58,055 nucleotides of DNA. It comes from Deltaproteobacteria bacterium (GTDB lineage: Bacteria; Desulfobacterota; Binatia; UBA1149; CAYXZP01). The notes beneath the pieces were generated by a model. That model was given only the letters and a program-made list of their open reading frames with translations. It was not told the origin of the DNA and ran no database searches. Position numbers and translations under genes: made by a program. The stretch lies in contig JAYGCK010000090.1 of the NCBI GenBank assembly GCA_046583395.1, positions 1 through 58,055 on the forward strand, in the 5' to 3' direction. Below, one piece after another: positions 1 to 42,942 of this stretch (position 1 is the first letter of the stretch; the number at the start of each line of letters is the position of its first letter).

Positions 1-61
1 TGGTTAAGGGAGAGGTCTGCAAAACCTCCATTCACCGGTTCGAATCCGGTCGCCGCCTCCA
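1..61 (+). tRNA. tRNA-Cys(GCA), 5' end cut off by the window edge
   Basis: D-loop remnant TGGTTAAGG, anticodon arm GAGGT-CTGCAAA-ACCTC, T-arm ACCGG-TTCGAAT-CCGGT, 3' end CGCCGCC-T-CCA (U73 discriminator typical of Cys). Confidence 0.95.
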
Positions 62-4074: not shown

Positions 4075-4747
4075 GGTGGTCCGCTATGGCCCGTTCCCAT
4101 TCCTCGGGCATGAACATGACCGGGCCTATTCCGCCCTGGTAGGCGACCTGGCCACGGCTATCGACAAGGTAGAGCCGCTCGGGCAGCGCGTTGTAGGCTT
4201 TCATCACCTCGTCGTTCATCTCATCGACCAGCACGGTCGGTTCTAGTTCAAGCCCGAGCGAGCAGGCCTGGGCGACCTCGGTGCGTTCTTCCATAGAACG
4301 GTGCTGGCGGTAGATGATGTCGTCGGTCTCGTTGTGAGAGACCTGCCACCCGTCGCTCGAATGTATCTCTCTGATATAGACGGCGTAAAAATCGACACGG
4401 TCACGATAGGTCCGGTAAATCTCGTTCAGGCGCCCCGCCGAGGCGCGAAAAGGAGGTCAAGTGTAACTGCCGAAGATGAGGGCCACCGGGCGCTTGCCGA
4501 AATGGTCGGACAAGCGAACGCTGCCACCACCATCGACCCGAGGCAGACAGAAGTCGGGCGCCTCGGTGCCCGGCCCGCAGGACCCGGGCTCGCGCTCGAG
4601 CATCTCGCTCACATGCTCGATCGCCAGCGGGTGGCTCATCACCTCGGCCATCTCTTCGGTCGATATCAAAGGTTCGGGACCGTCGGCACTCGCAGCGCGC
4701 TCGGCCATGATGGAGGCTACGAGGGCTTGGACATTTTCTTGGTTCAT
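4052..4747 (-). CDS. Iodothyronine deiodinase-like selenoprotein (231 aa, Sec97 from in-frame TGA at 4457-4459)
   Basis: Manual translation through the TGA is open and joins two ORFs: APDFCL...RPVALIFGSYT-U-PPFRASAGRLNEIYRTYRDRVDFYAVYIREIHSSDGW...LVDEMNDEVMKAYNALPERLYLV...GGIGP. This matches deiodinase motifs FGSxTUPPF, YIxEAHxSDGW and AxPERLY. Confidence 0.92.
4430..4446 (-). promoter_or_regulatory. Putative bacterial SECIS hairpin
   Basis: GCGCCUC-GGC-GGGGCGC stem-loop beginning at the 11th nt after the UGA, with G in the apical loop. Confidence 0.65.
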
Positions 4748-4781
4748 TCGGGCCACGGACAAACCTAAACCCCCGGCGGCC

Positions 4782-5546
4782 TCAACACGAGCCGGCCGAG
4801 ACCGCGTCATCAACGGTATATACCGCGCCGTTGACGTAGGAGGCCTCGTCGGAGGCCAGGAACAAGATGACCGCAGCGACCTCGTCGACCGTCCCCATAC
4901 GACCGCCGGGAAGCCGTTGGCTAAGCTCCTCGCGGCCGCCTGGCAACATGTCAGCCCAGGCCAGCATCGGTGGCGTGGCAATGGTACCCGGACATACGCA
5001 GTTGACCCTGAGACCGCTGGCGGCCCCTTCGAGCGCAGCCGTGCGGGTAAGATGCATGACTGCGGCCTTGGCCGCCCCATATGCGGACAGACCGGGCTCA
5101 CCGCCGAGCCCGGCGGCCGAAGAGATGTTTATCACCGAGCCCGACCCCTGTTCGGACATCACCCGCATAGCGGCGCGGACCCCGTAGAATACCCCGTCGA
5201 GGGTGACCGACATGACCTCGCGCCAGGTCTCATCACTGGTGTCGCCTATCGGTCCGCCGGTCGAACAGGCCGCATTGTTGACCATGACGTCCAAGCGCCC
5301 GTAACGCGACACCGCCTCGCCGACCACTTGGTCGACGGTCTGCGAGAGCGAGACATCACCGACCAATGTCGAAGCGGCCCCACCGGCAGCGGTGATATCG
5401 GCGGCGGCCTGGCCGGCCCGGTCGGCCTCACGATCATTGACCAACACCTGCGCACCCTCGGCTGCAAAGGCCAGGGCCGCGGCGCGGCCTATACCGGAAC
5501 CGGCGCCGGTTATGGCAACGACCTTGTTGGTAAAACGGGTGCTCAA
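4782..5546 (-). CDS. Short-chain dehydrogenase/reductase (SDR)
   Basis: [15 protein letters not shown], YxxxK (YGAAK), RVNCVCPG. Confidence 0.92.
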
Positions 5547-6523
5547 GAGGCCCGGGCGCGTTCGGTGGGCGCGCTCATCGGCCTTAGGCCGGCGGCCTCA
5601 AGCATGGCCTCGTCGGCCAGGTGGTCGGGATTGCCGGTGGTCAGCAGTTTGTCACCATAGAAGATTGAGTTGGCGCCGGCCAGGAAGCAGAGCATCTGGC
5701 TTTCCTCGCTCATCTCGGTGCGCCCGGCCGACAAACGAACCACAGAGGCCGGCATCATGATACGTGCGGTGGCCACCATCCGGACCATCTCCATGGCAGC
5801 CACAGGTTCGCAGTCGGCCAGAGGCGTGCCCTCGACCGCGACCAATGCGTTTATCGGAACACTTTCGGGATGACGCGGCTGCGTGGCCAGTTCTACCAGC
5901 ATCGCGCAACGGTCGTCGGTGCTTTCGCCCATGCCGATTATGCCACCCGAACAAACGGTGACGCCGGCATCACGGACATGGGTCAGAGTGTCCAAGCGGT
6001 CCTGATACTGGCGGGTGGTGATTATCTCACCGTAGAACTCCGGCGAGGTATCCAAATTGTGGTTGTAGGCCGTCAGCCCGGCCTCGCCCAAGCGGCGGGC
6101 CTGCTCGGCGGTCAACATGCCAAGGGTCACGCAGGCCTCCATCCCAAGGCCCCTCACGCCACGGACCATTTCGAGCACCGAATCGAACTCGGCTCCGTCA
6201 CGGACCTCGCGCCAGGCCGCGCCCATACAGAACCGGCTCGCTCCGGCCTCGCGGGCCAACGCGGCCTTGGACAGGACGTCGGGCACATCCATGAGTTTCT
6301 CGGCCTCGACCCCGGTCTGGTAGTGGGCAGATTGCGGACAATAGGCGCAATCCTCCGGGCAGGCACCGGTTTTTATCGACAGCAGGGAACAGAGCTGCAC
6401 TTCGGCAGGGTCATGGTGAACCCGGTGCAGGGCCTGGGCCCGGAAGATCAGGTCCGGAAGGGGCAGATCGTGAAGCTCACGGGCCTGCGCGGTGGTCCAG
6501 TCGTGACGTATCTCGTCGGCCAT
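5543..6523 (-). CDS. bioB: Biotin synthase
   Basis: [11 protein letters not shown] radical SAM motif, [42 protein letters not shown]. Confidence 0.97.
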
Positions 6524-8088: not shown

Positions 8089-8838
8089 CTAGCGGAACAG
8101 ATCGTCCTCGGGCGGGCGGATCATGTCCCGGGCCCGGCCCTTGCCCGACTGGTAAGCAAAACCCCGAACCAGCACTGCCGGAATGCCATCGGCCTTGCCC
8201 ATGACCATCCCTGCGGCCCCGGCCAACTGGTCGGCAACCGCGACCACTGTGTGCTCGAGCCGGCGCCCGCCACGGTCGAGCCCGCCGCCCAGGTCACGTA
8301 ACACCTCGATACCGGCGGCACCGATGGCCAGGTCTATCTGGCCCAGCCGCCAAGGCCGCCCGAAGGTATCGGACACCACCACGGCCAACTGCTGCCCGAA
8401 ATGGGCCATCAAGGAATCTCGCAGGGAGGCCGCCGAACGGTCGGCGTCCTCGGGAAGGAGGGTGACCTCGTCATCGCCAGCCTGGTTGGAACGGTCGATG
8501 GCCGAGTTAGCACCGACCCAGCCCGGCCCGGTCGCGGTGATAAGATGGCCGTCGCGCATACGCAGGACCTCACGGGCTTCTTTAAGGGCAAGCTCGACCA
8601 GCGGTGGGTCCTTGTCATGACTGCCGGCAAACTCGAGCGCCCGCTCGGAAGGTTCAACATCCGACAGCCTGACCACACGGCCCTCGGCCTTGGAGACGAC
8701 CTTCTGGCAGACAACGACAACGTCGTTCTCGTTGATTCCGACCCGGGAGCTTTCCAGCGCCTCGATGATCTGCTCGGCCAGATCGTCGCCCTCAGCGACT
8801 TCGGGGATTCCCTCGATGGGTATTAGTACGGTAACCAT
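8089..8838 (-). CDS. cofE: Coenzyme F420-0:L-glutamate ligase
   Basis: GIPEV..GDDLA, QKVVSKAEGR, ANSAIDRSN, LLPEDAD.SA, DTFGRPWR.GQ, DQLA.AA.MVMGK, P..DLFR. No C-terminal nitroreductase (FbiB) domain. Confidence 0.95.
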   Translation of the reverse strand: MVTVLIPIEGIPEVAEGDDLAEQIIEALESSRVGINENDVVVVCQKVVSKAEGRVVRLSDVEPSERALEFAGSHDKDPPLVELALKEAREVLRMRDGHLITATGPGWVGANSAIDRSNQAGDDEVTLLPEDADRSAASLRDSLMAHFGQQLAVVVSDTFGRPWRLGQIDLAIGAAGIEVLRDLGGGLDRGGRRLEHTVVAVADQLAGAAGMVMGKADGIPAVLVRGFAYQSGKGRARDMIRPPEDDLFR

Positions 8839-8839
8839 T

Positions 8840-9775
8840 TCAGCTGTCCTGAGTCACAAGCTCTAACATGAACTTGGCCAATCGGCGGGCACGACCGACA
8901 TCACCGATCAATGTGTCGTGCTCGACAAGCTCGGGCCAACCCGGCTGCCGGCGCGAGGGCAGGTCGCCGGGGGCGACCACCAAGTGACCGGCCAGCCCCC
9001 GGTAGAACTCCGCGATGGCCGCGGTCCCACGGCCAAGCGACATCGACCGTAGCATTGCCGGAAGCGGACCCTTTACCGAGCGGCCACCGATGAGAGGACT
9101 GACTGCCACCACTCGCGAACGCGCCCGCCGGAGTGCCTGACGTATACCGGGTACGGTCAGCATCGGTGCGATGCTGACCAAGGGATTGCTGGGGGCGATG
9201 ACCACCGTCTTGGCCCGGGCAATGGCGCTAAGAACACCGGGGGCGGGGCGGGCACGAAGCGCCCCCGTAAAGCTCAGCCGCAAGACCTTGGGCCGGGCCC
9301 GCTCGCGCACAAGGTAGTGCTGGAAACTGAGCCGTCCCCGGTCGGTCACGGCCACGGTCCTGACCCTGTCGTCGCTCATCGGCAGCACCCGGGCCCGAAC
9401 CCCCCGCGCCTTGCAAATATCGCTGGTCACCTGGCTCAGCCGGCGTCCTCGGCCGAGCTGTTGGGTACGAAAGATATGGGTGGCCAGGTCGCGGTCACCG
9501 AGATTGAACCAGGCATCCTGGCCGGTCAGAACCTCGAGCTCGGCAAGGGCCGTAAAGCGGTCGCGGGCTATGCCCCAGCCGGTCCTGCGCGAGGCCATGC
9601 CGGCCAAGGTATAAACGATGGTATCTAGGTCGGGTGAGACCGACAGGCCGTAGAACTCGTCGTCATCGCCGGTGTTGACGATGACCGTAAGGTTCTCCGG
9701 GTCAGTTAAGCGTGCCAGTCCGCGCAGGAGCTTGGCTGCTCCCACGCCACCGGCCAGCATCGTAATGCCCGCCAC
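8840..9775 (-). CDS. cofD: 2-phospho-L-lactate/phosphoenolpyruvate transferase
   Basis: LAGGVGAAK, IVNTGDD, SPDLDT..YTLAG, WFNLGDRDLATH, LPMSDD, FQHYLV, PSNPLVSI. GTG 9775 with GGAGAGG SD. Confidence 0.95.
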   Translation of the reverse strand: MAGITMLAGGVGAAKLLRGLARLTDPENLTVIVNTGDDDEFYGLSVSPDLDTIVYTLAGMASRRTGWGIARDRFTALAELEVLTGQDAWFNLGDRDLATHIFRTQQLGRGRRLSQVTSDICKARGVRARVLPMSDDRVRTVAVTDRGRLSFQHYLVRERARPKVLRLSFTGALRARPAPGVLSAIARAKTVVIAPSNPLVSIAPMLTVPGIRQALRRARSRVVAVSPLIGGRSVKGPLPAMLRSMSLGRGTAAIAEFYRGLAGHLVVAPGDLPSRRQPGWPELVEHDTLIGDVGRARRLAKFMLELVTQDS

Positions 9776-10976
9776 CGTCCTCTCCCGGAGCACCGGTACC
9801 GTCGAGATGACCGTACAGGGTGTTGCGTTGTTGCGGTATGCGTCCCATCCGCGTGACCATCGCGCGTAGCTCCTCGACCGAGGTGTACTCGCCGGCATCT
9901 GCGCCGGCCTCGCGCGATATGCTCTCTTCCATCAGGGTCCCGCCAACATCGTTACAGCCGGCGGCCAAGGAGAGCGCGGCCAGTTCGTGGCCGAGCTTGA
10001 CCCAGGAGGTCTGCAAATTGTCGATAAGCCCACGCAACATCAGACGGCTGGTCGCGTAAACGGCCATATCGAGCTGCCCCTGCGGTATCGGCCGGACCCG
10101 GCCCTCGCGATAAAGCACGGTGTTCTGCCAGATGAACCTCAAGGGCACGAACTCCGTAAACCCTCCGGTCTCGGCCTGGAGCCGGCGCAAGAGGTCTATG
10201 TGACGGGCCACATGCAGCGGTGTTTCTATATGCCCGTACATCACCGTCGATGTGGTTGGCAGCCCCAGCTCATGGGCGGTACGGATAATCTCGGTCCAGT
10301 TGGCCACATCGAGCTTCTTGTGGCTTAGAATCTCGCGGACCTCGTCGTCGAGGATTTCGGCCGCGGTACCGGGCATGCTGCCCAGACCGGCCTCCATCAA
10401 CAGAGATATGAACTCGCGATAACCAAGCCGCATGCGGCGGGCACCGTACATCACCTCCATCGGAGAGAATGCGTGTATGTGGGTATCTGGGAAGGCCTCG
10501 TGTACCGCGCGCAGAATCTGCAGATATCCGTCATCGGGCATCTCGGGGTTGAGTCCGCCCTGCATGCATATCTCGGTGGCACCCCGTTCGATGCCCTGCT
10601 CGATGCGGCCCAGCACATTGTCCATGTCGTGCTCGTAGGCCTCTTCGTCTCCCTTTAGGTGGGCAAAGGCACAGAACTTACAGCCCACGAAACAGACGTT
10701 GGTCCAGTTTACGTTGCGGTTGACGACATAGGTCACTACCGGCCCGACATCGTCGGCCCTTATCCGGTCGGCCGTGGCGACCAGGGCCGAAAGCTCTTTG
10801 CCGCGTGTGTCAAGAAGCCTGACGGACTCTTCGACCGAGGGGCGGGTGCCGCCTAGCGCACGCTCGAGAATGCCCGCAAGGCCGGGGCTGACCGCGCCAA
10901 TCCGCTGCTCGAGACTGCGCTCATCGGTGAGCAAGAAGTCGACGTTGTCGGCGTTGGTCTCGGTCTCATAACTCAT
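9702..10976 (-). CDS. cofH: FO synthase subunit 2 (radical SAM)
   Basis: VTYVVNRNVNWTNVCxxxCxxCAF, TEICMQGG, HAFSPME, SMPGTAAEILDD, GGFTEFVPL, SWVKLG, NDVGGTLMEESISR.AG. Confidence 0.95.
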   Translation of the reverse strand: MSYETETNADNVDFLLTDERSLEQRIGAVSPGLAGILERALGGTRPSVEESVRLLDTRGKELSALVATADRIRADDVGPVVTYVVNRNVNWTNVCFVGCKFCAFAHLKGDEEAYEHDMDNVLGRIEQGIERGATEICMQGGLNPEMPDDGYLQILRAVHEAFPDTHIHAFSPMEVMYGARRMRLGYREFISLLMEAGLGSMPGTAAEILDDEVREILSHKKLDVANWTEIIRTAHELGLPTTSTVMYGHIETPLHVARHIDLLRRLQAETGGFTEFVPLRFIWQNTVLYREGRVRPIPQGQLDMAVYATSRLMLRGLIDNLQTSWVKLGHELAALSLAAGCNDVGGTLMEESISREAGADAGEYTSVEELRAMVTRMGRIPQQRNTLYGHLDGTGAPGEDGGGHYDAGRWRGSSQAPARTGTLN

Positions 10977-12136
10977 GATGCGCTGGCCTCTAGCCGCGTG
11001 TCACTTCTGGCCGCGACGGCCTCGGTCATGGCCGGCGCCATGAACTCATCGTTTAGGAACTCATCATAGACCGGCAGGCGAGGGACAAGCTCGAAGCCTT
11101 CCTCGCCACAGGTCTCGGCCAGGCGGTCGATGTGCGGCCAGGGCGCCTCGGGGTTAACGTAGTCCATTGTAAGAGGGGAGATGCCTCCCCAATCGTTTAT
11201 GCCCGCATGGATGAGCCGGCGGTGTGCGGCCGGGCTAAGATTTGGAGGAGCCTGCAGGCTGGTCTCTTCGCCCAAAATAAGCCGTGCGATGGCCACGCTG
11301 CGCACCATCTCGTCATCACCGGGCTCGGAGGCCTCCGACATACCGGTCTCGGGCTTGGCGCGAAAGTTCTGGACGATGACCTCTTGGATATGTCCGTAGC
11401 GGCGGTGTAGGCCGCGTATCGCGAGCAAACTGGCAATGCGCTCGGCCTCGGTCTCGCCGATGCCGATAAGGATACCGGTGGTAAAGGGGATACGCAGCTG
11501 GCCAGCCTCCTCGATCATTTGCAGTCTGGCCGACGGTTCTTTGTCGGGCGCCCAGGCGTGCGGCATGCCGCGGCCGCGAAGGCGAGGGCTGATGTTCTCC
11601 AGCATCAGGCCCATGCTCACGTTGAGCGGGCGCAGCATGGCCATCTCGTCCTTGCTGAGCAACCCGGCGTTGGTGTGCGGGAGTAAGCCCTCGTCGAGCG
11701 CCAGCCTACAGGCCAACGCGACATACTCGGCGGTTGAATTGCAGCCATACGACCCCAAGAGGTCTTTGAAGCCACGGAAGGCGACCTCGGGCTTGTCGCC
11801 CAAACACATTAGCGCCTCTATGCAGCCGAGACGGCGTCCGCGCACCGACCAATCGCTTATCTCGGCCGGGCTCATCGTCCACTCACCGGGCTGTCCGGGG
11901 TCGCGGCGGAAGGTGCAGTAGGTGCAACGGTCGCGACAGAGATTGGTGACCGGCAAGAAGACCTTGGGCGAATATGTCAGTGTCGTTGGCCAGCGACGGT
12001 CGCGCACGGCGGCGGCGGCGGCCAGCAGTTCGTCGGTACGGTCTGCCTCTATCTGAGTGAGCGTGTAGGCCTCGTTGTCGGAAAGGCCCTTGCCCGACCG
12101 GGCCTGTTGCAGGGCTAGTCTAGCCGGGTCGGTCAT
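10973..12136 (-). CDS. cofG: FO synthase subunit 1 (radical SAM)
   Basis: TYSPKVFLPVTNLCRDRCTYCTF, LLPHTNAG, SMGLMLE, PFTTGILIGIGE, HIQEVIVQNF, QAPPNL, GINDWGGISP, NPEAPWP. Confidence 0.95.
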   Translation of the reverse strand: MTDPARLALQQARSGKGLSDNEAYTLTQIEADRTDELLAAAAAVRDRRWPTTLTYSPKVFLPVTNLCRDRCTYCTFRRDPGQPGEWTMSPAEISDWSVRGRRLGCIEALMCLGDKPEVAFRGFKDLLGSYGCNSTAEYVALACRLALDEGLLPHTNAGLLSKDEMAMLRPLNVSMGLMLENISPRLRGRGMPHAWAPDKEPSARLQMIEEAGQLRIPFTTGILIGIGETEAERIASLLAIRGLHRRYGHIQEVIVQNFRAKPETGMSEASEPGDDEMVRSVAIARLILGEETSLQAPPNLSPAAHRRLIHAGINDWGGISPLTMDYVNPEAPWPHIDRLAETCGEEGFELVPRLPVYDEFLNDEFMAPAMTEAVAARSDTRLEASAS

Positions 12137-18326: not shown

Positions 18327-18403
18327 GGCGAGGTAGCTCAGGTGGTTAGAGCGAGGGTCTCATAATCCCTAGGTCGTGAGTTCGAGTCTCACCTTCGCCT
18401 CCA
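18327..18403 (+). tRNA. tRNA-Met(CAT), probably elongator
   Basis: GGCGAGG/CTTCGCC acceptor with G1:C72 paired (so not initiator); anticodon loop CTCATAA; T-loop TTCGAGT; encoded CCA. Ile2 not strictly excluded. Confidence 0.92.
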
Positions 18404-20515: not shown

Positions 20516-21970
20516 TCAGTCGTCGAGGCCGAAGAGCAGGTCGACCAGTTCGTTGGCCACCCCGAGCGAGATCGTGCCCAAACAGGCCGGATCTGGCGTA
20601 GCGTCGGTCGGGAAGGAGCACCCCTGGAGCCCGCCGGTATCGGTGCACTTGGCGAACTGGCCGGCCACCTTGGCGCGCAGCTTGTCGAGCTTGGCGGCAT
20701 AGCTGGCGCTACAGTCGATAGGCTCATCGGCGACGATGTTGGCGATCTCGCAGCGTGACAGGACCTTGGTGGCGATCAAGGCCGACTTGGCCGTAACCTT
20801 GAGCAAGCGGGTTTGGCAGGACGCGGCCTCGGCCGTAACGGCCACCGCTGGCAAGTCGGGCGGATTGGAACCGCTAGCGGCCTCAAAGATGTCCGCGGTG
20901 GCCTCGTCCTGACGGCACACCAGGCAATCGACGAGGTCGTCGAGACCGCCCAGCTCTATGGTCTCGCAGGCCCCCCCGCAGTCGTCGGCCAGGTCAAGCA
21001 GCGAGGGGGTCAGCCCCTGCGGGGCGCAAACGCGGTCACGGTTGCCACCCAGCAAACGGCCGAGCTTGTCCTCGGCAGTGCTCAAGCGGACTTCGCGCAG
21101 GCCCTCACTGCAGGCTCTGCCCCAGGCGGCATCAACGTAGCAGCGATCCCACTCGCGAAGATGCCTCTTGCTGTAGCGGCCAAAGCGCTTGGCCACCGAA
21201 CCAAGGCAGGCGTGGCGCTGGTCGGCCGGTGCGCGCACATGCATAACGCCGACACCGGACAGCGACACATCAAGGGTCGCCTCATCGGCATCGGGGTCGT
21301 TGGTCTCGATACGCAAGACCCCGGCCTCGAAGGCACCGGTGGGCGGCGAAAAGCTCACGGTGATGGTCACGTTCTGGCCCACCGCTATCTCGAAGGGCGC
21401 CACGGGCCCATCGGCCGCGAACATGGGGCTGGAGCCCTCGACCAGGCCATAGGATGACACCAGCAAGGGATGTTCGCTGCCGTTGTTGTAGATGGTCAGT
21501 GCAGAACTGCCGGTGGAACCTGCGTCGGCAAGGATACCGATGGAGGGAACCGAGATGCGAACATCGAGCGGTTCCAAGCAGGAGACCACGCCCGGGGTGG
21601 CGTAACCGTCAAACCCTTGAGGGGCTCCCATGGCCTCGTAGTAGTTAGCGCACGAGTAGCCGGGCAGGGTCAGGTAGTCGAGGAGTTCCTCTACATTGCT
21701 GAAACCGTCCTCGTCGCTGTCGCCGTTCTCGGAATCGGCCAGCGACCTCTGTATCGATTTGCCGACGTAGAGATGCTGTTGCACCAAGTTGCCGAAGGGA
21801 TTGCGTGGACCGGTGCCGTCCCATTTGAAATGACAGACGGCGCAGGTGTAAAGACGCGACTCCTCGGTGATTCCATAGGTGGAGGTCAGCACGTCGAAGT
21901 AGGTCGGCCGAGAATCGGCCTTGCCCGCCGCCGAGACCACGAGCGCCAGCGCTAGTGCCAACACCCTCAC
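20516..21970 (-). CDS. Secreted monoheme c-type cytochrome with Ca-binding-like motif, Ig-like domain and 14-Cys C-terminal domain
   Basis: Signal peptide; CAVCH...GPRNPFG; DSDEDGFSNVEE...TLPG (TSP3-like); LTIYNNGS.PL.V...V.FSP...G.L.I.TNDPD...L.G.G (Ig-like); GTG 21970 overlaps the upstream TGA and follows GGAGG. Confidence 0.8.
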   Translation of the reverse strand: MRVLALALALVVSAAGKADSRPTYFDVLTSTYGITEESRLYTCAVCHFKWDGTGPRNPFGNLVQQHLYVGKSIQRSLADSENGDSDEDGFSNVEELLDYLTLPGYSCANYYEAMGAPQGFDGYATPGVVSCLEPLDVRISVPSIGILADAGSTGSSALTIYNNGSEHPLLVSSYGLVEGSSPMFAADGPVAPFEIAVGQNVTITVSFSPPTGAFEAGVLRIETNDPDADEATLDVSLSGVGVMHVRAPADQRHACLGSVAKRFGRYSKRHLREWDRCYVDAAWGRACSEGLREVRLSTAEDKLGRLLGGNRDRVCAPQGLTPSLLDLADDCGGACETIELGGLDDLVDCLVCRQDEATADIFEAASGSNPPDLPAVAVTAEAASCQTRLLKVTAKSALIATKVLSRCEIANIVADEPIDCSASYAAKLDKLRAKVAGQFAKCTDTGGLQGCSFPTDATPDPACLGTISLGVANELVDLLFGLDD

Positions 21971-24372
21971 GGCTGTGCCACCTCCACCGTGGCCGCCACC
22001 ACCGCTGCCAACGACTGCTCCATGCAGGCCGAAACATCGGCCGCCGCACCGGCAGTCGCACAACCCGCCAACCCCCCAAAGCCGCTCTTACAAGCCGCCA
22101 CCTTGCGCACGGCCTTACTCTTGGCCTTGGCTATCTTGCCACGCGGGTCGGCCGAACAATCTGCAGGACTGGCGGCCCTCAGGTTTCTATCCTCGCAACC
22201 AAGCAACGCGCCCGCCCAGCCGGTGGCCAGTTTGGCGGCGGCGATGCCGAGCGACTTCTGACACGACCGCATCTCGGCCGCTGCGGCCGCCGGTCTGTCA
22301 GGAGGCGAGGTGTTGTAGGCGGCCTCGAGTGCTTGGCCGGCCAGGCTATCGCCGACACAGATGGCGCAGTCGGCCATGTCGCCCATGTCATGAAGAACCA
22401 CCGTGCCGTCGCAGGGGACCGGACACACGCTGCCGTGGCCGAGTGTTTCGGGAACCAAATCGACGGTGGCACAGCGACGGTCGCGGTTTCCTCCTACCTT
22501 GGAGCGCAACTTGGCCGCAGCCTTGGAGACCTTGGCCTCGAGCGCACCCTCGTTGCAGCCCACCCCGGCCGAGGACGACTGGTAACAGCGCGCCCAAGCT
22601 TTCAAGTATTTCTTGAGATACTTGCCCTGGCCGCGGAGCAACACACGGCGACAAGCGTCGACGGTACCAGCGTCTGACTCATAGAAGGCCCGGGCCATGG
22701 CCACTGGCTCGGACATTCCGTATTGGCTCCACAGGTCATAGAGGAGGGGGCCGGCCGCATTGGTCACGTTCTCGTCGAAGAGGAACTCTATGTATTCGCG
22801 TGAAGCGGTCTGGTAGTAGAGCGTGACCTCGGCACGAACCGCTTGGGCGCCCACAGGATAGACCACGTCGTCCCAATACTGGCCGTCTGCGAAGTCCTGC
22901 CCGACCGGATGGCCGTCGAATGACTGATAGGCGGCGTTGGTGAAGCCGCGCGGTGGTATGCGGTTGTCCTTTTCGCGTACGTTGTTGAGTACCAGATGGG
23001 AGCTTGGGCCGGGAACATGCCCGACGACGGCCGCCCATTCGGGGCTCATGCCGTGCACCGCCTCCCACACCTGAAGATACGAGTCGTAGTCGGGCTCACC
23101 GTTGGCCGAATCGTGACCAACCAAGGTGGCGGTCTCGAACACATAGCGGCCCGACTCGAAGACGACCCGGCGCTCGGCGTCGGTTGCCCGCACGTGCAAC
23201 CACATGCGCCGTCCGTCGGGATAACCGGTGGGAAGCTTGTGGCCGCTCTCGTTGCTAACGCGCACGGTCAACTGACCGGCTGAGATGTCGGCCGAAAGCG
23301 TGGCGGCCTTTCTCAGCATCGCTTCGGCCTTGTCGGCGCCGTCGAGCAGCACCTCACGGTCGACCTCGTCCCCAAACACCGGATGATAGGGCAACACCTT
23401 GGGAATGAATGTGTTGGCGCCGACCATCTCGTGGAGCGGGAGGTCGTCGCGCAGGGGACCGTCCTCGGCATCGATGCCGCTGACGTCGGGCATGTGGCAG
23501 TCCTGACAGGTCGATACGACCGCCTTGTTGCCGCCGAACTGCGGAGCGTAGACGCCCGCAGAGGCGTACTCGCTCTCCTTCCACTCGTCGTAGGTCGACT
23601 GTTCGGGGAAGGCGAGTGCGGGATTGCCCGGCTGCCCAAAAGGATTGGGGTCATAGCCGCCCCCGGCATTGCGACTGAACACGGGGTTCCCCACGTTGTG
23701 GCAGGTCCCGCAAAGCGCCGAACTCTGGTGAAAAGGCGAGACCAGAGTACCGTGCGAGGGAACATGCGGGTCGCCAGCATTGTCGGCGACTACGTCAAAA
23801 GGACCGCGCAGCCTGGCCTCGGGGTCGATTACCATCTGTGCAGACCCCAAGGTCGTCACCGGCACCATAAGTGCGGCGATGATGGCAGCGTCGGCCACGG
23901 GGGCATCCTGGCCGCCAAACGGATCGACCATGCGGTGGCACACCGAGCATTGGACACCGTGGCGGTCGCCGGCGTTCATCGCAGTGCCATCGGTCGGGAC
24001 CGAACGGCCCTCGATCCAGCCGCGTGGCAGATGGCAGCGCAGACAGGTCTCGCCCGATTCGTCGAGGTCCTGGTTGGCCACGGCCATGGCGGCCCACATT
24101 AAGGGGTCGCGGCCGGACTGCGCCATCATCGAACCCTGCCAATTGCGGTAGGGTTCGACCTCGGGGCTGCCGTAACCGGCATGACAGTCGGTGCACTGGT
24201 CGGGCGTGGCCAGGCCATCGATCAGGCTTAGTGGTTGGGTCCCGGGCAGGCTGAAGTCCTGGGCCGTGGTAGGGGAATCGGCTAGCACGGGCGGCACCGC
24301 CAACAACAAGGCCAACACTGCGCCAATAGATACAACTAGACGGTCCGACGCTCTTTGTTCGTAGCGCAGCAT
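21967..24372 (-). CDS. Secreted pentaheme c-type cytochrome with 14-Cys C-terminal domain
   Basis: Signal peptide ending VLA; five CxxCH motifs (CTDCH, CLRCH, CSVCH, CGTCH, CQDCH); W.GSMMAQSGRDP, GHKLPTG..RR.WL, DNRIPPRGF. Confidence 0.88.
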   Translation of the reverse strand: MLRYEQRASDRLVVSIGAVLALLLAVPPVLADSPTTAQDFSLPGTQPLSLIDGLATPDQCTDCHAGYGSPEVEPYRNWQGSMMAQSGRDPLMWAAMAVANQDLDESGETCLRCHLPRGWIEGRSVPTDGTAMNAGDRHGVQCSVCHRMVDPFGGQDAPVADAAIIAALMVPVTTLGSAQMVIDPEARLRGPFDVVADNAGDPHVPSHGTLVSPFHQSSALCGTCHNVGNPVFSRNAGGGYDPNPFGQPGNPALAFPEQSTYDEWKESEYASAGVYAPQFGGNKAVVSTCQDCHMPDVSGIDAEDGPLRDDLPLHEMVGANTFIPKVLPYHPVFGDEVDREVLLDGADKAEAMLRKAATLSADISAGQLTVRVSNESGHKLPTGYPDGRRMWLHVRATDAERRVVFESGRYVFETATLVGHDSANGEPDYDSYLQVWEAVHGMSPEWAAVVGHVPGPSSHLVLNNVREKDNRIPPRGFTNAAYQSFDGHPVGQDFADGQYWDDVVYPVGAQAVRAEVTLYYQTASREYIEFLFDENVTNAAGPLLYDLWSQYGMSEPVAMARAFYESDAGTVDACRRVLLRGQGKYLKKYLKAWARCYQSSSAGVGCNEGALEAKVSKAAAKLRSKVGGNRDRRCATVDLVPETLGHGSVCPVPCDGTVVLHDMGDMADCAICVGDSLAGQALEAAYNTSPPDRPAAAAAEMRSCQKSLGIAAAKLATGWAGALLGCEDRNLRAASPADCSADPRGKIAKAKSKAVRKVAACKSGFGGLAGCATAGAAADVSACMEQSLAAVVAATVEVAQP

Positions 24373-24507
24373 GATCACCGGCGGCTCGCTCTCACCCCAA
24401 CCAGAAGCGACAGTGAACCCTGGTCCTCTACGTTCACACCCGGCTCGGCGGCTGTCAACGAACCCGCCCCCCCGATGGGGTGGGTTCACGTGCGAAAAAG
24501 CCCGCTT

Positions 24508-25131
24508 CTAGTCCACTCCGGGCAAGCCCCTCGGGCTGCCGGCCGCGAACAGGTCGTCGGGCGCCAGACGGCCTGCAATCAATTCGTCCAGGACAGACGC
24601 CGTAAAGCCCAAGGCGAAGCTGCGCGGTGTGAAGGGCTCGGTCGGGTCCAAGTCGCCGCTTGTCCGACCGCTGTCTTGCAGCCCGTAGACCAGTAGCAGC
24701 TCAAGACCGGCGGGTTCGAAGCGCGCGCTTTCAAGGCGGGCAAGGACCGGCCGGGCCACCGTGTCCCAGACCCGGCGGTCGCTGTCCTCGACCGCGACGG
24801 CGCCAGCCTCAAAGATGATGCCGGTATCGACACGGATACGCAGATGGCCGGGGCCCAGGTCCGGAGATGGCCCGACCACCTCGACCTCGCTTGGGGCCAA
24901 CGCCCCGGCCTTCATCGATTCCATTAAAAGTAACACTTGAACTGTAAGCGCATCGGGGCCGTAGCTGTTGGCCGTATCGGCCAGTTCGGCGGCCAGCTCC
25001 TCGACCCGCGCTCGCAGCTGTCCGTCGCGGTCGCCACCACCGGCCCCATCGCCGGCAACGGCGGGGCAGGGCGCCGCGCTTAGCAGAACCGCGCTCAGTG
25101 CGATAATGAAGAACCTGGGCACGGCTGCCAT
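24508..25131 (-). CDS. Hypothetical exported protein
   Basis: N-terminal signal peptide; co-oriented upstream of the cytochrome pair; no recognised motif. Confidence 0.6.
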   Translation of the reverse strand: MAAVPRFFIIALSAVLLSAAPCPAVAGDGAGGGDRDGQLRARVEELAAELADTANSYGPDALTVQVLLLMESMKAGALAPSEVEVVGPSPDLGPGHLRIRVDTGIIFEAGAVAVEDSDRRVWDTVARPVLARLESARFEPAGLELLLVYGLQDSGRTSGDLDPTEPFTPRSFALGFTASVLDELIAGRLAPDDLFAAGSPRGLPGVD

Positions 25132-25144
25132 GATGGGCGATGAG

Positions 25145-26235
25145 ATGAGAAAGGGGAAGGCGCGGGGTTGGCCGCTACCGCGCGAGCACTACCGGCTGCT
25201 GTCGGCCCTTCGTAACGGCCTGGACCACGGGCCGGCCGCCGGCCACCTGCTGGTGGCGGTCTCGGGCGGGTCCGACTCGATGGCCTTGCTCGAGCTTGTC
25301 GCACTAGCCGCCAGCAGCGGCCCACTGAAAGTTACCGCCTGCCACATCGACCACCAAGTTCGTCCCAACGGCCCGCGCGAGCGGGACTTTGTAGCGGCCG
25401 GCGCCGCCCAGCTAGGTCTGGCGTTCACCAGCCGCACGGTGACCGACCCCGGCCGTGGCGACGAAGACCACCTGCGCCGCTGCCGTTACCGGCTCCTGGA
25501 AGAAGCGGCAGAGGCTGCAGGAGCCGATCTTATCGTGACCGGCCACACCCGCGACGACCAGATTGAGACGGTACTGTTCCGCTTGCTGCGAGGTGCGGGC
25601 CTGGGCGGCTTGGCCGGCATGCGACAACGTCGCGGCCGCATCGTCCGGCCGCTTCTCGGAGAGAGCCGCGACAGCCTCAGGCGTTTCCTCCGCGACCGCG
25701 GCGTGGCCTGGTTGGACGACCCTTCGAACGCCGACATGCGCTATGCCCGCAACCGCATGCGCCACCTTGTGGTCCCGGCCCTCGAGACGGCCTTCGGCCA
25801 TGGCACGGTCGACCACATCCCGGAACTGGCCCGGCGCTGGCGCCTCGACGAGGACCATCTGGAGGCCGAGGCCCGGCGCTTTGCGGCCTTTGTTACCCGC
25901 GGCCACGGCCCGGCCGCAGAACTCGACCTTGCCGCACTGGCCGGTATCCCCGAGGCCTTGCGTGCCAGGGTGCTAAGGAACTGGGTCGGCTCGGTAGGGG
26001 GCCCCGACCCTCTAACTATCGCGCAACTAGAACGGGTGGAGGCCATCGCATCGAGCACGGCCAAGCCGGGTTCGGTGGACCTTCCCGGGCTCGTGGTCCT
26101 GTACCGGGACGGCCGGCTGCTGGCCGCATCCCCGGGAGCTGGCTCAAAAGCGAACCCGGCCGCGCGTGGAATCAACAAGGCCGACCGTGTACAAGGGCCT
26201 GTTAAGCGCGGGCCGGGAAAGCGCGCGGCAAAGCC

Positions 26236-26239
<4 letters not shown>
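25145..26239 (+). CDS. tilS: tRNA(Ile)-lysidine synthetase
   Basis: PP-loop [39 protein letters not shown]. Start uncertain (about 25130-25170). Confidence 0.93.
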
Positions 26240-28055
<1,816 letters not shown>

Positions 28056-41116: not shown

Positions 41117-41120
<4 letters not shown>

Positions 41121-42211
41121 ACCGCCCCACCGCCGGCGACCTCGACGCTGCGCTGGCCAAAAAGGTTCAGCTTGTAGCGCCGTATCGTGGCCGGCTCTAT
41201 GCGCCGGCCGCTATCGTCCTGGTAGTACAGGGCATCGACCGGACACTGAACGACGCAGGCCCCGCATTTAACGCAACGATCCTCGTGGGCCAGCTCAATC
41301 GTGCGGCTCCCGGGCACCTGCTCGAAACAAGTTTCAGGACAGACCGCCTCGCAGTTGTAGACGCCGACACAAGCGGCGCTATCTAGCGTAATGGCCCAAC
41401 GGCGGCTGTCGAAGTGGCTGCCGCCCACGGTCGGGGTCGAACCAGCATGGTCGAAGGTCAGGACGGCCAGGATGAGCGTAGTCGAAACCAGCGCTTGGCC
41501 GCAGTTGACCAGCGTGGCTCCGACCGACAGCGGCCAAGCCAGCGCCGCTGTGGCCGAAACCAGCCACAGTACCGGCCAGCGCAGGCGTCCCATACGGTCG
41601 TAGACGAAGAAGACCAGGAAGGACATCAGCCAGGCCTGGGTAACGGCCACCAGTCCCCAGGAAACACTCACGAGCGCCAGCAACGCGCCTAGCAGCAAAG
41701 AGGTGGGGAAGGCCCAGGCTATGGCCATCTCCGAACGCTCGCGGGCACCGAAGCGTACCCGCCGCATTGAACCGTCCTTCTTCATGCCGGCCTCGAGATA
41801 ACGGGGCAGGTCACGGGCGTGGACCGGTCCGAACACGACCTTCCAACCCGACCGTTTGGCGACCTCGCGGCCGAGCACACCGGTAGCGGCAAGTTGCGGA
41901 AGTACGGCACGCTTGTTGGTGACCTCTTTTTCGACCCCTGAGGTCTTTAGCGCGGTTATGACCTGGCTGGTCGTGAGCAGGCCGCCGGCCGCCGCGCACC
42001 ACACGTTGACGCCGCGCGAGGGGGCCACCACCACCCAGGCGTCGATACCGCCCAACTCGGCCATAAGACGTCTTACGGTAAGGTCGTAGTTACAGGTGAC
42101 CAGTACCGGACTGGACGACCCCGGGCTCCCCGACCGGCGAAGTCCGGTCTCGGTCGGCCAGGGGAACAGGCGCAGGCCGGTCTGAAGTGCGTCGAGCAGC
42201 AGTGCCTTCAC
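41117..42211 (-). CDS. HgcAB-like fusion protein (corrinoid-binding domain + about 4 TM helices + ferredoxin)
   Basis: SPVLVTCNY.LT, cap-helix-like GVNVWCAAAGG, LPQLAATGV, GW.V.FGPV.A.DLP.YL, MRRVRF...ER; hydrophobic block; CVGVYNCEAVCP and CVKCGACVVQCP. Confidence 0.88.
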
Positions 42212-42876
42212 GCACCGGCCCCCTTGCGCGCTTCGAACAGGCCTATGGTCCCGAACAGGTAGCTGCGCTCATGGACCGCGCTCAATCCGGCGGCGGCAAG
42301 TTCGGCCTCGGGCCGGGGCAGGGGTGAACTCGTGCGTCCGGCCAACACCCAGGCCAGCACCGACAGTGGCAGTCTCAGCAGCCCGAACAGGAACCTTGCC
42401 AGACCTGTGCGGGGAAGCGTCTCGTCGACAAGGACCAGCCGGCCGCCGTCGACCAGCAGCCGGGCGGCCTGGCCCAGAACATAGGCCCGTTCGCTGGCCG
42501 ACATCTCCGACAGGGCAAAGGCCGCGGTCACCACATCGAAGGATGCCGGCTCGAGACCGTCAATCTCGGCGGCGGCCTTTTCCTGAAGCACTAGCCGGGA
42601 CTGGTCCTTGGTGGCGCCGAGCCGCTGGGCGGCGATGTCGAGCATCTCGGGAGCTTCGTCTATGGCCAGCACGCTGGCGCCGTCGCGCAAGAGCAAAGAG
42701 GTCAGAGCGCCGGTCCCGCAGCCGATCTCCAGGATACGGGCACCCGGGACCAGCGCAGCCCTGCCTGCCGCGTCCCTGCGGCTGCGGGCGGCCACGCCGA
42801 AGGTCAGCAGCTCCATCCCGGCGTCATAACGCCTGGGGGCCGACTCCAGGATTCGCATGAGGACAAGCGAGCTCAC
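42208..42876 (-). CDS. Class I SAM-dependent methyltransferase resembling corrinoid-protein-associated methyltransferases
   Basis: MRILESAP.RYD N-terminus, motif I LEIGCGTG, ID....ML, FD......LSE, GG.L...DE. Its TGA overlaps the GTG of the HgcAB-like gene. Start GTG 42876 is favoured because ATG 42891 overlaps a putative -10 (TTGCCA-17-GACAAT). Confidence 0.88.
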   Translation of the reverse strand: MSSLVLMRILESAPRRYDAGMELLTFGVAARSRRDAAGRAALVPGARILEIGCGTGALTSLLLRDGASVLAIDEAPEMLDIAAQRLGATKDQSRLVLQEKAAAEIDGLEPASFDVVTAAFALSEMSASERAYVLGQAARLLVDGGRLVLVDETLPRTGLARFLFGLLRLPLSVLAWVLAGRTSSPLPRPEAELAAAGLSAVHERSYLFGTIGLFEARKGAGA

Positions 42877-42942
42877 CGGTGTGACTGCCATTGTCAGCCC
42901 ATGCCTCTTTGATGGCAAGGCCGCCCGCGCTACGGTCGGGTC

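What the first reader, a model, noticed from the sequence alone, without database searches (positions are those of the whole stretch)
41117..42876. SAM methyltransferase + fused HgcAB-like protein: a corrinoid methyl-transfer system with unknown target
Seen: a translationally coupled two-gene unit. The second gene has an HgcA-type corrinoid domain with the cap-helix Cys (NVWCAAAGG), about 4 TM helices and a fused ferredoxin. Known: HgcA/HgcB methylate mercury in anaerobes using N(V/I)WCA(A/G)GK. Organisms with fused HgcAB that were tested (Pyrococcus furiosus, Methanococcoides methylutens) did not methylate Hg, so the role of the fusions is open. Inference: the methyltransferase loads a SAM methyl onto the corrinoid (or modifies the corrinoid protein), the ferredoxin re-reduces cobalt, and the methyl goes to an unidentified acceptor such as a metal(loid) or membrane substrate. 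The host looks oxygen-using (2OG dioxygenase, Coq4) and B12-using (meaB), which is unusual for hgc homologues.
Basis: partly seen in the sequence, partly recalled or inferred. Interest (0 to 1): 0.88.

Follow-up and report, generated by a model that had tools for sequence, protein, structure and literature searches.

The report
Known CpaM plus HgcAB-like gene pair
This is a real, intact copy of an already catalogued two-gene unit: a SAM methyltransferase paired with a membrane-bound vitamin-B12 and iron-sulfur protein related to the mercury-methylating enzyme. Its target is still unknown and is probably not mercury.

Summary
On the minus strand, a 222-aa SAM methyltransferase gene (42208-42876) overlaps a 364-aa gene (41117-42211) by 4 bases (GTGA).

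- **Second protein.** It has a corrinoid domain with cap-helix Cys72 (NVWCAAAGG), four predicted membrane helices and a C-terminal ferredoxin.
- **Already catalogued.** NCBIfam names both proteins: HgcAB-like fusion protein (368 bits, cut-off 285) and corrinoid protein-associated methyltransferase CpaM (228 bits, cut-off 180). The protein fails the true HgcA model (160 bits, cut-off 275) and the published cap-helix motifs. It also lacks the cysteine-bearing C-terminal tail seen in a model-passing HgcB.
- **Linkage.** CpaM lies directly upstream in 76 of 80 related loci. Single-chain CpaM-HgcAB-like fusions exist.
- **Docking model.** A complex model places CpaM's SAM face on the cap helix (ipSAE 0.67, best control 0.00).
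- **Host.** It is a marine bacterium with a 2.1-Mb genome, a haem-copper oxidase and no CobS or CbiB. An oxidase-bearing host is normal here, not unusual: 71 of 80 carrier genomes encode such an oxidase.
- **Likely mechanism (inferred).** SAM gives its methyl through CpaM to Co(I), forming a Cys-ligated methyl-Co(III), which passes it to an unknown acceptor.

This scan had already reported the same pair in other genomes (26 notes matched my word look-up). Ordinary member; interest is low to moderate.

The parts
42208..42876 (-). cpaM: class I SAM-dependent methyltransferase, 222 aa (GTG start; an in-frame ATG at 42891 is the alternative start)
   Evidence: NCBIfam NF043040 CpaM scores 228.2 bits against a cut-off of 180. 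Pfam gives Methyltransf_12/25/11 and UbiE-type hits. The N-terminus MSSLxLMR and the motifs G52, G54, T55, G56, M78, D151 and E152 are invariant in 57 sequences; C53 and D73 are nearly invariant (90% or more).
41117..42211 (-). HgcAB-like fusion protein gene, 364 aa (GTG start, TAA stop)
   Evidence: NCBIfam NF043039 scores 368.1 bits against a cut-off of 285. The HgcA model NF040863 scores only 160.1 against 275. AlphaFold2 model: pLDDT 85.6.
42208..42211 (-). GTGA overlap of the cpaM stop (TGA) with the HgcAB-like start (GTG); AAGGGGG lies upstream
   Evidence: Read directly from the sequence.
41804..42163 (-). Corrinoid-binding domain (residues 17-136), CFeSP/CdhD type
   Evidence: Pfam PF03599, E 2e-11. 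It is the only PF03599 match in the genome. Foldseek's best hits are the HgcAB model 9a0b_A and CFeSP large subunits.
41981..42013 (-). Cap-helix motif GVNVWCAAAGG (residues 67-77); Cys72 codon at 41996-41998
   Evidence: C72, N69 and W71 are invariant. The motif aligns with NVWCAAGK of a model-passing HgcA.
41456..41746 (-). Membrane domain: four predicted helices (residues 156-252)
   Evidence: AlphaFold2 helices at 156-179, 183-206, 208-230 and 234-252. Basic residues flank the cytoplasmic ends (read from the sequence).
41213..41395 (-). Ferredoxin domain (residues 273-333). Motif 1 is CVGVYNCEAVCPETC, with the second Cys replaced by Val284; motif 2 is CVKCGACVVQCP.
   Evidence: Pfam Fer4 families. 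Motif table across loci. Val284 aligns with the second Cys of HgcB motif 1. 7Fe ferredoxins are among the PDB sequence hits.
41120..41212 (-). Conserved basic C-terminal tail (IRRYKLNLxGxR...), with no cysteine
   Evidence: R344, K347, L348, G352 and R354 are invariant in 57 sequences. There are 0 Cys after motif 2. Residues 345-349 touch CpaM in the complex model.
42890..42918 (-). Sigma-70-like promoter match (TTGCCA, 17 nt, GACAAT) in the 66-nt gap before the divergent der gene
   Evidence: One site found against 0.1 expected from shuffles. This is a consensus match only. If real, the GTG 42876 mRNA would be nearly leaderless.

Best explanation
**What it is.** An intact, ordinary member of the catalogued CpaM plus HgcAB-like module. 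It sits without a regulator between the housekeeping genes era and der in a small-genome marine bacterium that can respire oxygen and must import its corrinoid.

**Proposed mechanism.**
1. The N-terminal domain of the membrane protein holds a cobamide, with Cys72 of the cap helix as lower axial ligand.
2. The fused ferredoxin reduces Co(II) to Co(I). It probably carries one [3Fe-4S] and one [4Fe-4S] cluster, because motif 1 has only three Cys.
3. CpaM docks its SAM pocket onto the upper face of the corrinoid and transfers the methyl, giving a Cys-on methyl-Co(III).
4. The methyl then passes to an acceptor at the membrane face. The acceptor is unknown and is unlikely to be Hg(II).

**Shown here:** gene anatomy, family membership, near-obligate linkage, single-chain fusions, and a complex model that passes its controls.

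**Inferred:** cobamide binding, Cys ligation, cluster types, the direction of methyl flow, and everything about the acceptor.
For: **Family membership.** NF043039 scores 368.1 against 285 and NF043040 scores 228.2 against 180.

**Linkage in 80 related loci.**
- CpaM lies directly upstream on the same strand in 76 of 80.
- Two of the four misses are contig breaks, with CpaM found at the end of another contig.
- One miss is a 5'-truncated gene. One is an intact gene with no CpaM detected in that genome assembly.

**Linkage in one 81-genome order sample.**
- 21 genomes have CpaM over the cut-off and 20 have an HgcAB-like hit; 19 have both.
- The three mismatches are explained by contig ends or a frameshift.
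- The one genome with a true HgcA has no CpaM.

**Single-chain fusions.**
- P0124 (638 aa) passes both models in one chain.
- 13 of the 150 listed representatives are at least 536 aa with the HgcAB-like part starting at residue 238 or later.
- 5 of 5 of these that I scanned are methyltransferase + CdhD + Fer4.

**Complex model.**
- ipSAE median 0.67 (0.63, 0.67, 0.70); the best of 3 controls is 0.00.
- That mark was reached by 58 of 80 solved complexes and 2 of 110 mismatched pairs.
- Partner pLDDT is at least 81 and the runs share at least 67% of their contacts.
- The interface joins residues 64-92 of the membrane protein (including C72) and 345-349 with CpaM residues 74-77, 99-106 and 124-133.
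- By the known class I fold, those CpaM stretches are the loops after strands 2, 3 and 4 that line the SAM and substrate site (my inference).

**Precedent.** Purified HgcAB forms a Cys-thiolate methyl-Co(III) from SAM (PMC11588087).

**Host.** COX1 is present; three B12-binding domains are found; no CbiB or CobS is detected at 98.7% completeness.
Against: - No biochemical step is tested.
- True HgcAB needs no partner to take the methyl from SAM, so CpaM may do something else.
- The complex was modelled without the cobamide. CpaM therefore touches the cap helix itself, which is where the cofactor should lie. The sandwich geometry is my reading, not an output of the model.
- The cap-helix start (residues 72-75) has pLDDT below 50.
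- One intact HgcAB-like gene (L069) has no CpaM in its genome assembly.
- My own alignments were used for the complex, so the calibration counts hold only roughly.
- Cluster type cannot be read from sequence. An extra Cys after CP (C295) is present in most family members and might complete a [4Fe-4S] cluster.
Confidence: 0.55

Rival explanations
1. CpaM is not the loader. As in true HgcAB, the corrinoid takes its methyl from SAM directly. CpaM instead methylates the acceptor or the product a second time, or prepares it, as the next enzyme of a two-step pathway.
For: Purified HgcAB is methylated by SAM with no partner (PMC11588087). CpaM's nearest named relatives are small-molecule methyltransferases such as UbiE/MenG, UbiG and ArsM types, all far below their cut-offs. 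Tight linkage and fusion fit consecutive pathway enzymes as well as a direct partnership.
Against: The complex model places the SAM-site loops of CpaM on the cap helix, not at the membrane face. True hgcA loci lack CpaM: one locus was inspected (L085) and its genome G087 has none. So the partner looks like a substitute for something that HgcA does by itself.
Confidence: 0.17
2. The module handles corrinoids rather than methylating a substrate. It would reduce and methylate scavenged cobamide at the membrane to supply the host's B12 enzymes.
For: The host has no detectable CbiB or CobS yet carries three B12-binding domains and MeaB. From my own recall, not from any call: the membrane protein BtuM binds cobalamin through a cysteine, and methionine synthase is reactivated by reduction plus SAM.
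Against: No cobalamin riboswitch, or any other riboswitch, was found in the window or in 9 relatives' loci that lack a TetR gene (0 of 10 sources). In 43 of 80 loci the upstream gene is a TetR-type repressor, which is not B12-type control. Distribution is patchy within the host's own order (13 of 31 genomes). I did not test whether carriers as a group lack B12 synthesis.
Confidence: 0.1
3. It is a working mercury methylase, like HgcAB.
For: It shares the cap-helix Cys and about 30% identity with a model-passing HgcA, and Foldseek's best hit is the HgcAB model. Podar et al. note that a lack of MeHg in P. furiosus does not prove the fusion cannot catalyse the reaction (PMC4646819).
Against: - The HgcA model scores 160 against a cut-off of 275.
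- The motif NVWCAAAG is not among the six accepted cap-helix motifs (PMC10087281).
- There is no cysteine after ferredoxin motif 2. The model-passing HgcB used for comparison (L085) has one Cys after motif 2 and a C-terminal Cys-Cys. Published work names C73, C94 and C95 of HgcB as crucial.
- Two cultured carriers of fused HgcAB made no MeHg above controls.
Confidence: 0.04
4. It is a decaying or silent remnant with no present function.
For: Broken copies exist elsewhere: a 5'-truncated gene in L062 and a frameshifted one in L097. There is no firm evidence of transcription here.
Against: - Both frames are intact and every family-invariant residue is present.
- The same arrangement is kept in the closest related genome found, at 77% protein identity.
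- DNA contigs of two seawater runs from other studies show it at about 99% identity.
- The genome is only 2.13 Mb.
Confidence: 0.03

Closest known systems
CpaM plus HgcAB-like fusion protein (NCBIfam NF043040 and NF043039); the 'fused HgcAB' of Podar et al. 2015, Gilmour et al. 2018, Capo et al. 2022 and Lin et al. 2023
   Same: Both proteins pass the curated cut-offs. They share the gene order, the translational overlap, the cap-helix Cys, the membrane helices and the fused ferredoxin.
   Different: - This copy has no TetR gene upstream, which 43 of 80 relatives have.
- It sits between era and der, an arrangement shared only with the closest relative L005.
- The papers I read describe the fusion but not the methyltransferase partner. 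'Corrinoid protein-associated methyltransferase' occurs in none of the papers found, and the 'CpaM' hits listed are unrelated uses of the abbreviation.
HgcA/HgcB mercury methylase (Pseudodesulfovibrio mercurii ND132; NF040863 and NF040864)
   Same: A corrinoid domain with a cap-helix Cys, a membrane domain, and a ferredoxin partner. SAM is the methyl source in the purified enzyme (PMC11588087).
   Different: - It is below the HgcA cut-off (160 against 275).
- The motif is NVWCAAAGG rather than N(V/I)WCA(A/G/S)GK.
- Four predicted helices against the five stated for HgcA.
- The ferredoxin is fused, its motif 1 lacks the second Cys, and it has no tail cysteines.
- It has a dedicated methyltransferase partner.
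Corrinoid iron-sulfur protein with its methyltransferase MeTr (Wood-Ljungdahl pathway; PDB 2h9a, 4c1n, 4djd)
   Same: The corrinoid-binding fold: 126 aligned columns at an rmsd of about 3.1 A, and E 4e-10 by sequence. The logic is also the same: a separate methyltransferase loads a protein-bound Co(I).
   Different: - The donor there is methyl-tetrahydrofolate and the loader is a TIM-barrel enzyme.
- CFeSP has no cap-helix Cys at the aligned position: the alignment shows SVLTA opposite NVWCA.
- CFeSP is soluble.
- The CFeSP gamma-subunit model NF003195 scores 75 against 306.
- This gene is the only PF03599 match in the genome; other Wood-Ljungdahl genes were not searched for.
7Fe ferredoxins (PDB 1fdd, 1axq, 2v2k, 1h98, 1bc6)
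   Same: They appear among the sequence hits to the ferredoxin part. The pattern is the same: a first motif with three Cys followed by CPxxC, then a full second motif.
   Different: Here the ferredoxin is a domain of a membrane protein. The cluster type is inferred from the Cys pattern only. The spacing of motif 1 is that of a standard CxxCxxC with the middle Cys replaced.

Membership tests
HgcAB-like fusion protein (NF043039) | Score over the curated equivalog cut-off | tested here: met
   368.1 bits against 285, covering profile positions 3-350 of 350.
HgcAB-like fusion protein (NF043039) | One chain with a corrinoid domain, membrane helices and a C-terminal ferredoxin | tested here: met
   PF03599 at residues 17-136 and Fer4 at about 276-335. 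Four long helices at 156-252.
HgcAB-like fusion protein (NF043039) | Conserved cap-helix cysteine | tested here: met
   C72 is invariant in 22 of 22 sequences and 57 of 57.
HgcAB-like fusion protein (NF043039) | Binds a cobamide and Fe-S clusters | not testable with these tools
   Needs purified protein with UV-visible, EPR and metal analysis.
CpaM, corrinoid protein-associated methyltransferase (NF043040) | Score over the curated cut-off | tested here: met
   228.2 bits against 180, covering profile positions 1-216 of 216.
CpaM, corrinoid protein-associated methyltransferase (NF043040) | Encoded next to an HgcAB-like gene | tested here: met
   A 4-base overlap here. The same order is found in 76 of 80 loci. 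21 of 21 CpaM-positive genomes in one order sample have the partner beside it: 19 were detected, 1 is frameshifted and 1 is cut by a contig end.
CpaM, corrinoid protein-associated methyltransferase (NF043040) | Class I SAM-binding motifs | tested here: met
   LEIGCGTG with G52, G54, T55 and G56 invariant and C53 and D73 nearly invariant (90% or more). Pfam Methyltransf_12/25/11. Actual SAM binding is not testable here.
HgcA, mercury methylation corrinoid protein (NF040863) | Score over the curated cut-off | tested here: not met
   160.1 bits against 275. A genuine member found here scores 358.
HgcA, mercury methylation corrinoid protein (NF040863) | [quoted passage not shown] 2022) | tested here: not met
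   The sequence reads NVWCAAAG(G). The motif list comes from PMC10087281.
HgcB, mercury methylation ferredoxin (NF040864) | Two CxxCxxCxxxCP motifs, plus the cysteines after motif 2 and at the C-terminus | tested here: not met
   43.4 bits against 99. Motif 1 lacks its second Cys (V284), and there is no Cys after motif 2. The importance of C73, C94 and C95 is stated in PMC11588087.
HgcAB mercury methylase | Methylates Hg(II) | not testable with these tools
   Two cultured carriers of fused forms were negative (PMC4646819; PMC5893877). This protein is untested.
Corrinoid iron-sulfur protein large subunit (NF003195, AcsC/CdhE) | Score over the cut-off; N-terminal [4Fe-4S] domain and TIM-barrel domain | tested here: not met
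   75 bits against 306. Only profile positions 321-448, the corrinoid domain, align.

The most novel reading that the evidence does not exclude
The module is an oxygen-compatible metal(loid) methylating machine that runs on SAM and cobalamin. It would work in the oxic ocean in a cosmopolitan, small-genome, oxygen-respiring marine bacterium. Surveys that discard 'fused HgcAB' would then be missing a real source of methylated metal(loid)s in oxic water. In the boldest form this includes methylmercury.
Probability: 0.06. Interest if true: 0.85.

Novelty: new member of a known kind. Interest (0 to 1): 0.3.

Why it matters
**Why the family matters.** Fused HgcAB-like genes are picked up by every hgcA survey and then set aside because two cultured carriers made no methylmercury. 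What they do is an open question.

**What this copy adds.**
- The family is mostly carried by genomes with an aerobic-type oxidase (71 of 80 examined).
- Its constant partner is predicted to dock on the cobalt site.
- Its ferredoxin motif 1 lacks the second cysteine in every locus where it can be read.
- A streamlined marine genome keeps the pair, without a regulator, between two essential GTPase genes.

If the loader hypothesis is right, CpaM would be a Rossmann-fold, SAM-dependent methyltransferase acting on a protein-bound corrinoid. That would also bear on how true HgcA uses SAM.

**Practical point.** This gene should not be counted as a mercury methylator.

Tried and rejected
- **Other conserved neighbours.** Clustering all ORFs of 80 loci gave only the pair, their antisense shadow ORFs and the TetR gene in 43 loci. 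The next cluster, an SDR-like protein, occurs in 12 loci at varying positions. No acceptor can be read from context.
- **Does the three-Cys ferredoxin motif track oxidase-bearing hosts?** Rejected. The motif is the same in the genomes without COX1, including the archaeal and OP8 genomes.
- **Riboswitches.** None in 10 sources.
- **CpaM profile against solved structures.** Only generic class I methyltransferases; nothing pointed to a substrate.
- **Expression.**
  - Two RNA libraries (X19, X20) hold 151-nt contigs at depth 2 on cpaM (42424-42879) and on der.
  - No contig lies on the HgcAB-like gene.
  - DNA carry-over cannot be excluded, and contigs cannot show level or strand. I draw no conclusion about transcription.
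- **Cassette-type TetR elsewhere in this genome.** The best match is only 27% identical, so its status is undecided.
- **Papers and supplements.**
  - Haft and Gwadz 2023 (J Bacteriol) might describe these NCBIfam models, but it is not held.
  - Supplements were not consulted. Figure S6 of Podar 2015 and the Hg-MATE catalogue may list carriers and their neighbours.
- **Phylogeny.** I built none against experimentally validated methylators, because I held only one true HgcA sequence (L085).
Full report
**1. What is there**

Two genes lie on the minus strand.
- The upstream gene (42208-42876, 222 aa from GTG) is a class I SAM methyltransferase. Pfam gives Methyltransf_12/25/11 and UbiE-type hits.
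- The downstream gene (41117-42211, 364 aa) starts at a GTG that overlaps the upstream TGA, giving GTGA. AAGGGGG lies a few bases before it.

The downstream protein has three parts.
- A CdhD-type corrinoid domain at residues 17-136, containing GVNVWCAAAGG with Cys72.
- Four long helices at 156-252 in an AlphaFold2 model (mean pLDDT 85.6, pTM 0.82).
- A C-terminal ferredoxin at about residues 273-333.

An even number of helices puts both soluble domains on the same side of the membrane. The basic residues before helix 1 and between helices 2 and 3 suggest the cytoplasm (my reading of the sequence).

Homologues start MSSLxLMR exactly at the GTG 42876 codon.

**2. It is already named**

| NCBIfam model | Score (bits) | Cut-off (bits) | Result |
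|---|---|---|---|
| NF043039, HgcAB-like fusion protein | 368.1 | 285 | passes |
| NF043040, corrinoid protein-associated methyltransferase CpaM | 228.2 | 180 | passes |
| NF040863, true HgcA | 160.1 | 275 | fails |
| NF040864, HgcB | 43.4 | 99 | fails |
| NF003195, CFeSP gamma subunit | 75 | 306 | fails |

What the literature says (passages read in each case):
- Fused HgcAB was described by Podar et al. 2015 (PMC4646819).
- Two cultured carriers, Pyrococcus furiosus and Methanococcoides methylutens, made no methylmercury above controls.
- Capo et al. 2022 advise treating such sequences with caution and list six accepted cap-helix motifs (PMC10087281). NVWCAAAG is not among them.
- Lin et al. 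2023 place the fused forms in a separate clade and note one aerobic carrier (PMC10083202).
- I found no paper that discusses the methyltransferase partner. The phrase 'corrinoid protein-associated methyltransferase' occurs in none of the papers found, and the 'CpaM' hits listed are unrelated uses of the abbreviation.
- A paper by the NCBIfam curators is not held. I did not consult supplements.

This scan had already reported the same pair in other genomes: 26 notes matched my word look-up.

**3. Linkage**

*The 80 related loci.* A scan of one genome per species found 203 loci that encode a relative; the best 80 were kept.
- In 76 of 80, a CpaM homologue lies directly upstream on the same strand.
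- Two of the four misses have no upstream DNA, and their CpaM sits at the end of another contig.
- One miss is a 5'-truncated gene (L062).
- One is an intact gene in a genome assembly with no detectable CpaM (L069).

*An 81-genome sample of one order.*
- 20 genomes carry an HgcAB-like gene and 21 carry CpaM over the cut-off; 19 overlap.
- The three mismatches are a contig edge with a partial CpaM, a frameshifted partner gene and a partner cut by the contig end.
- The single genome with a true HgcA (358 bits) has no CpaM.

*Single-chain forms.*
- P0124 (638 aa) passes both models in one polypeptide.
- Of the 150 best representatives from an exhaustive search, 13 are at least 536 aa with the HgcAB-like part starting at residue 238 or later.
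- All 5 that I scanned are methyltransferase + CdhD + Fer4.

*Family size.* At 50% identity clustering there are 179 clusters at E up to 1e-30 and 758 at E up to 1e-10.

**4. How the two proteins may meet**

A complex prediction with my own 57-row alignments gave the following.
- ipSAE was 0.63, 0.67 and 0.70 (median 0.67); the best of three controls was 0.00.
- That mark was reached by 58 of 80 solved complexes and 2 of 110 mismatched pairs in the tool's calibration. The calibration holds only roughly for alignments supplied by the user.
- Partner pLDDT was at least 81, and the runs agreed in at least 67% of their contacts.

The confident interface joins:
- residues 15-23, 64-92 (the cap helix with C72), 120-121 and 345-349 (the conserved RRYKLN tail) of the membrane protein, with
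- CpaM residues 6-11, 74-77, 99-106, 124-133 and 176-182.

In class I methyltransferases the loops after strands 2, 3 and 4 form the SAM and substrate site. Those are the stretches 74-77, 99-106 and 124-133, next to the nearly invariant D73, A102, E104, D106, S123 and S126.

The model holds no cobamide. I read the contact as CpaM facing the place where the corrin ring would sit, with Cys72 below it. This is an inference.

No similar complex is solved. The best fold matches are a computed HgcAB model (9a0b) and CFeSP, whose loader is a TIM-barrel enzyme. A pass from memory of solved structures is therefore unlikely.

**5. Differences from the mercury enzyme**

I compared the protein with a model-passing hgcAB locus (L085).
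- The corrinoid and first membrane parts are about 30% identical. NVWCAAGK aligns with NVWCAAAG.
- The ferredoxin aligns at 42% identity over 52 residues. Val284 sits where HgcB has the second Cys of motif 1.
- The first motif reads CxGxxxCxxxCP, with a non-Cys residue at that position, in every one of the 80 loci where it can be read, archaeal ones included.
- The single-chain P0124 keeps the classical motif.
- 7Fe ferredoxins appear among the PDB sequence hits. A [3Fe-4S] plus [4Fe-4S] pair is therefore plausible but unproven.
- After motif 2 there is no cysteine. The HgcB of L085 has one Cys after motif 2 and a C-terminal Cys-Cys. Published work names C73, C94 and C95 as crucial.
- Purified HgcAB takes its methyl from SAM without a partner and forms a Cys-thiolate methyl-Co(III) (PMC11588087).

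**6. Host and setting**

*The genome.*
- It has 2.13 Mb in 131 contigs and is 98.7% complete.
- It encodes a haem-copper oxidase subunit I (457 bits) and three B12-binding domains.
- It has no detectable CbiB or CobS.
- This gene is its only CdhD-family match.

*An oxidase-bearing host is normal for this branch.* 38 of 40 plus 33 of 40 carrier genomes have a COX1-family match over the cut-off. The Pfam family also covers nitric-oxide reductases and cbb3 oxidases, so this shows potential for aerobic respiration, not lifestyle.

*Distribution.* In the host's own order, 13 of 31 species genomes (10 of 18 genera) carry the gene.

*Gene neighbourhood.*
- The order is rnc, era, then the pair on the opposite strand, then der, a hexapeptide-repeat protein, guaB and guaA.
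- Only the closest relative, L005, shares this placement.
- A TetR-type gene precedes CpaM in 43 of 80 loci (Pfam-confirmed in 3 of 3 members). It is absent here.
- The 66-nt gap to der holds one sigma-70-like match.

*Where the DNA occurs.*
- The stretch is found nearly unchanged in marine, seawater and hydrothermal-vent metagenome runs.
- 18 runs hold at least half of its sampled words. Six of these may be the source of the assembly.
- The other 12 runs come from 10 studies.
- DNA contigs of two such runs tile era, the pair and der at about 99% identity.

**7. Verdict**

The claim that an oxygen-using host is exceptional does not hold.
- The best explanation is a SAM to CpaM to Cys-on cobamide to unknown-acceptor relay (confidence 0.55 for the mechanism; about 0.95 for family membership).
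- The main rivals are:
  - CpaM acting after, rather than on, the corrinoid (0.17);
  - corrinoid processing (0.10);
  - true mercury methylation (0.04);
  - a silent remnant (0.03).
- The acceptor cannot be named from sequence or context.

Noticed in passing
window 26206-28055: The ftsH gene is split by a frameshift near 27700-27735. The AAA and first half of the M41 peptidase domain end at 27735, and the rest of the peptidase continues in another frame to 28055. This is either an assembly indel or a genuine break.
   Followed up: partly
window 8092-12136 (minus strand): A run of coenzyme F420 biosynthesis genes: F420 ligase (cofE-like), CofD, a CofH-like radical SAM gene and a second radical SAM gene. 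This is in a bacterium that also carries Coq4 and a haem-copper oxidase.
   Followed up: no
window 20519-25131 (minus strand) and 405-1562, 4476-5657: Several long ORFs (515, 840, 207, 386 and 394 aa) have no Pfam match at E up to 1e-5. Some may be shadow ORFs in this 65% GC DNA.
   Followed up: no
P0123 (769 aa, public protein collection): An HgcAB-like protein (397 bits on NF043039) carries a C-terminal extension of about 400 aa. The precomputed Pfam hits for it include the VirJ family (PF06057).
   Followed up: no
P0159, P0180, P0214, P0215, P0236 (431-539 aa): A set of HgcAB-like relatives has an N-terminal extension of roughly 110-200 residues with no Pfam match. Both of their ferredoxin motifs hit Fer4 models.
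   Followed up: partly
L097 3586-4697 (G113): A TetR-CpaM-HgcAB-like operon in which the HgcAB-like gene is split by a frameshift after about residue 110. The contig is 1.19 Mb long.
   Followed up: partly
L005-L084, ferredoxin motif 1: The second Cys of the first ferredoxin motif is replaced (CxGxxxCxxxCP) in every locus where the motif is readable. The Cys three residues after CP is present in most loci but is Val or Leu in about ten. I saw no mention of this in the papers I read.
   Followed up: partly
window 1-58, 1404-1487, 18327-18400: Three tRNA genes; the first is cut by the start of the window.
   Followed up: no
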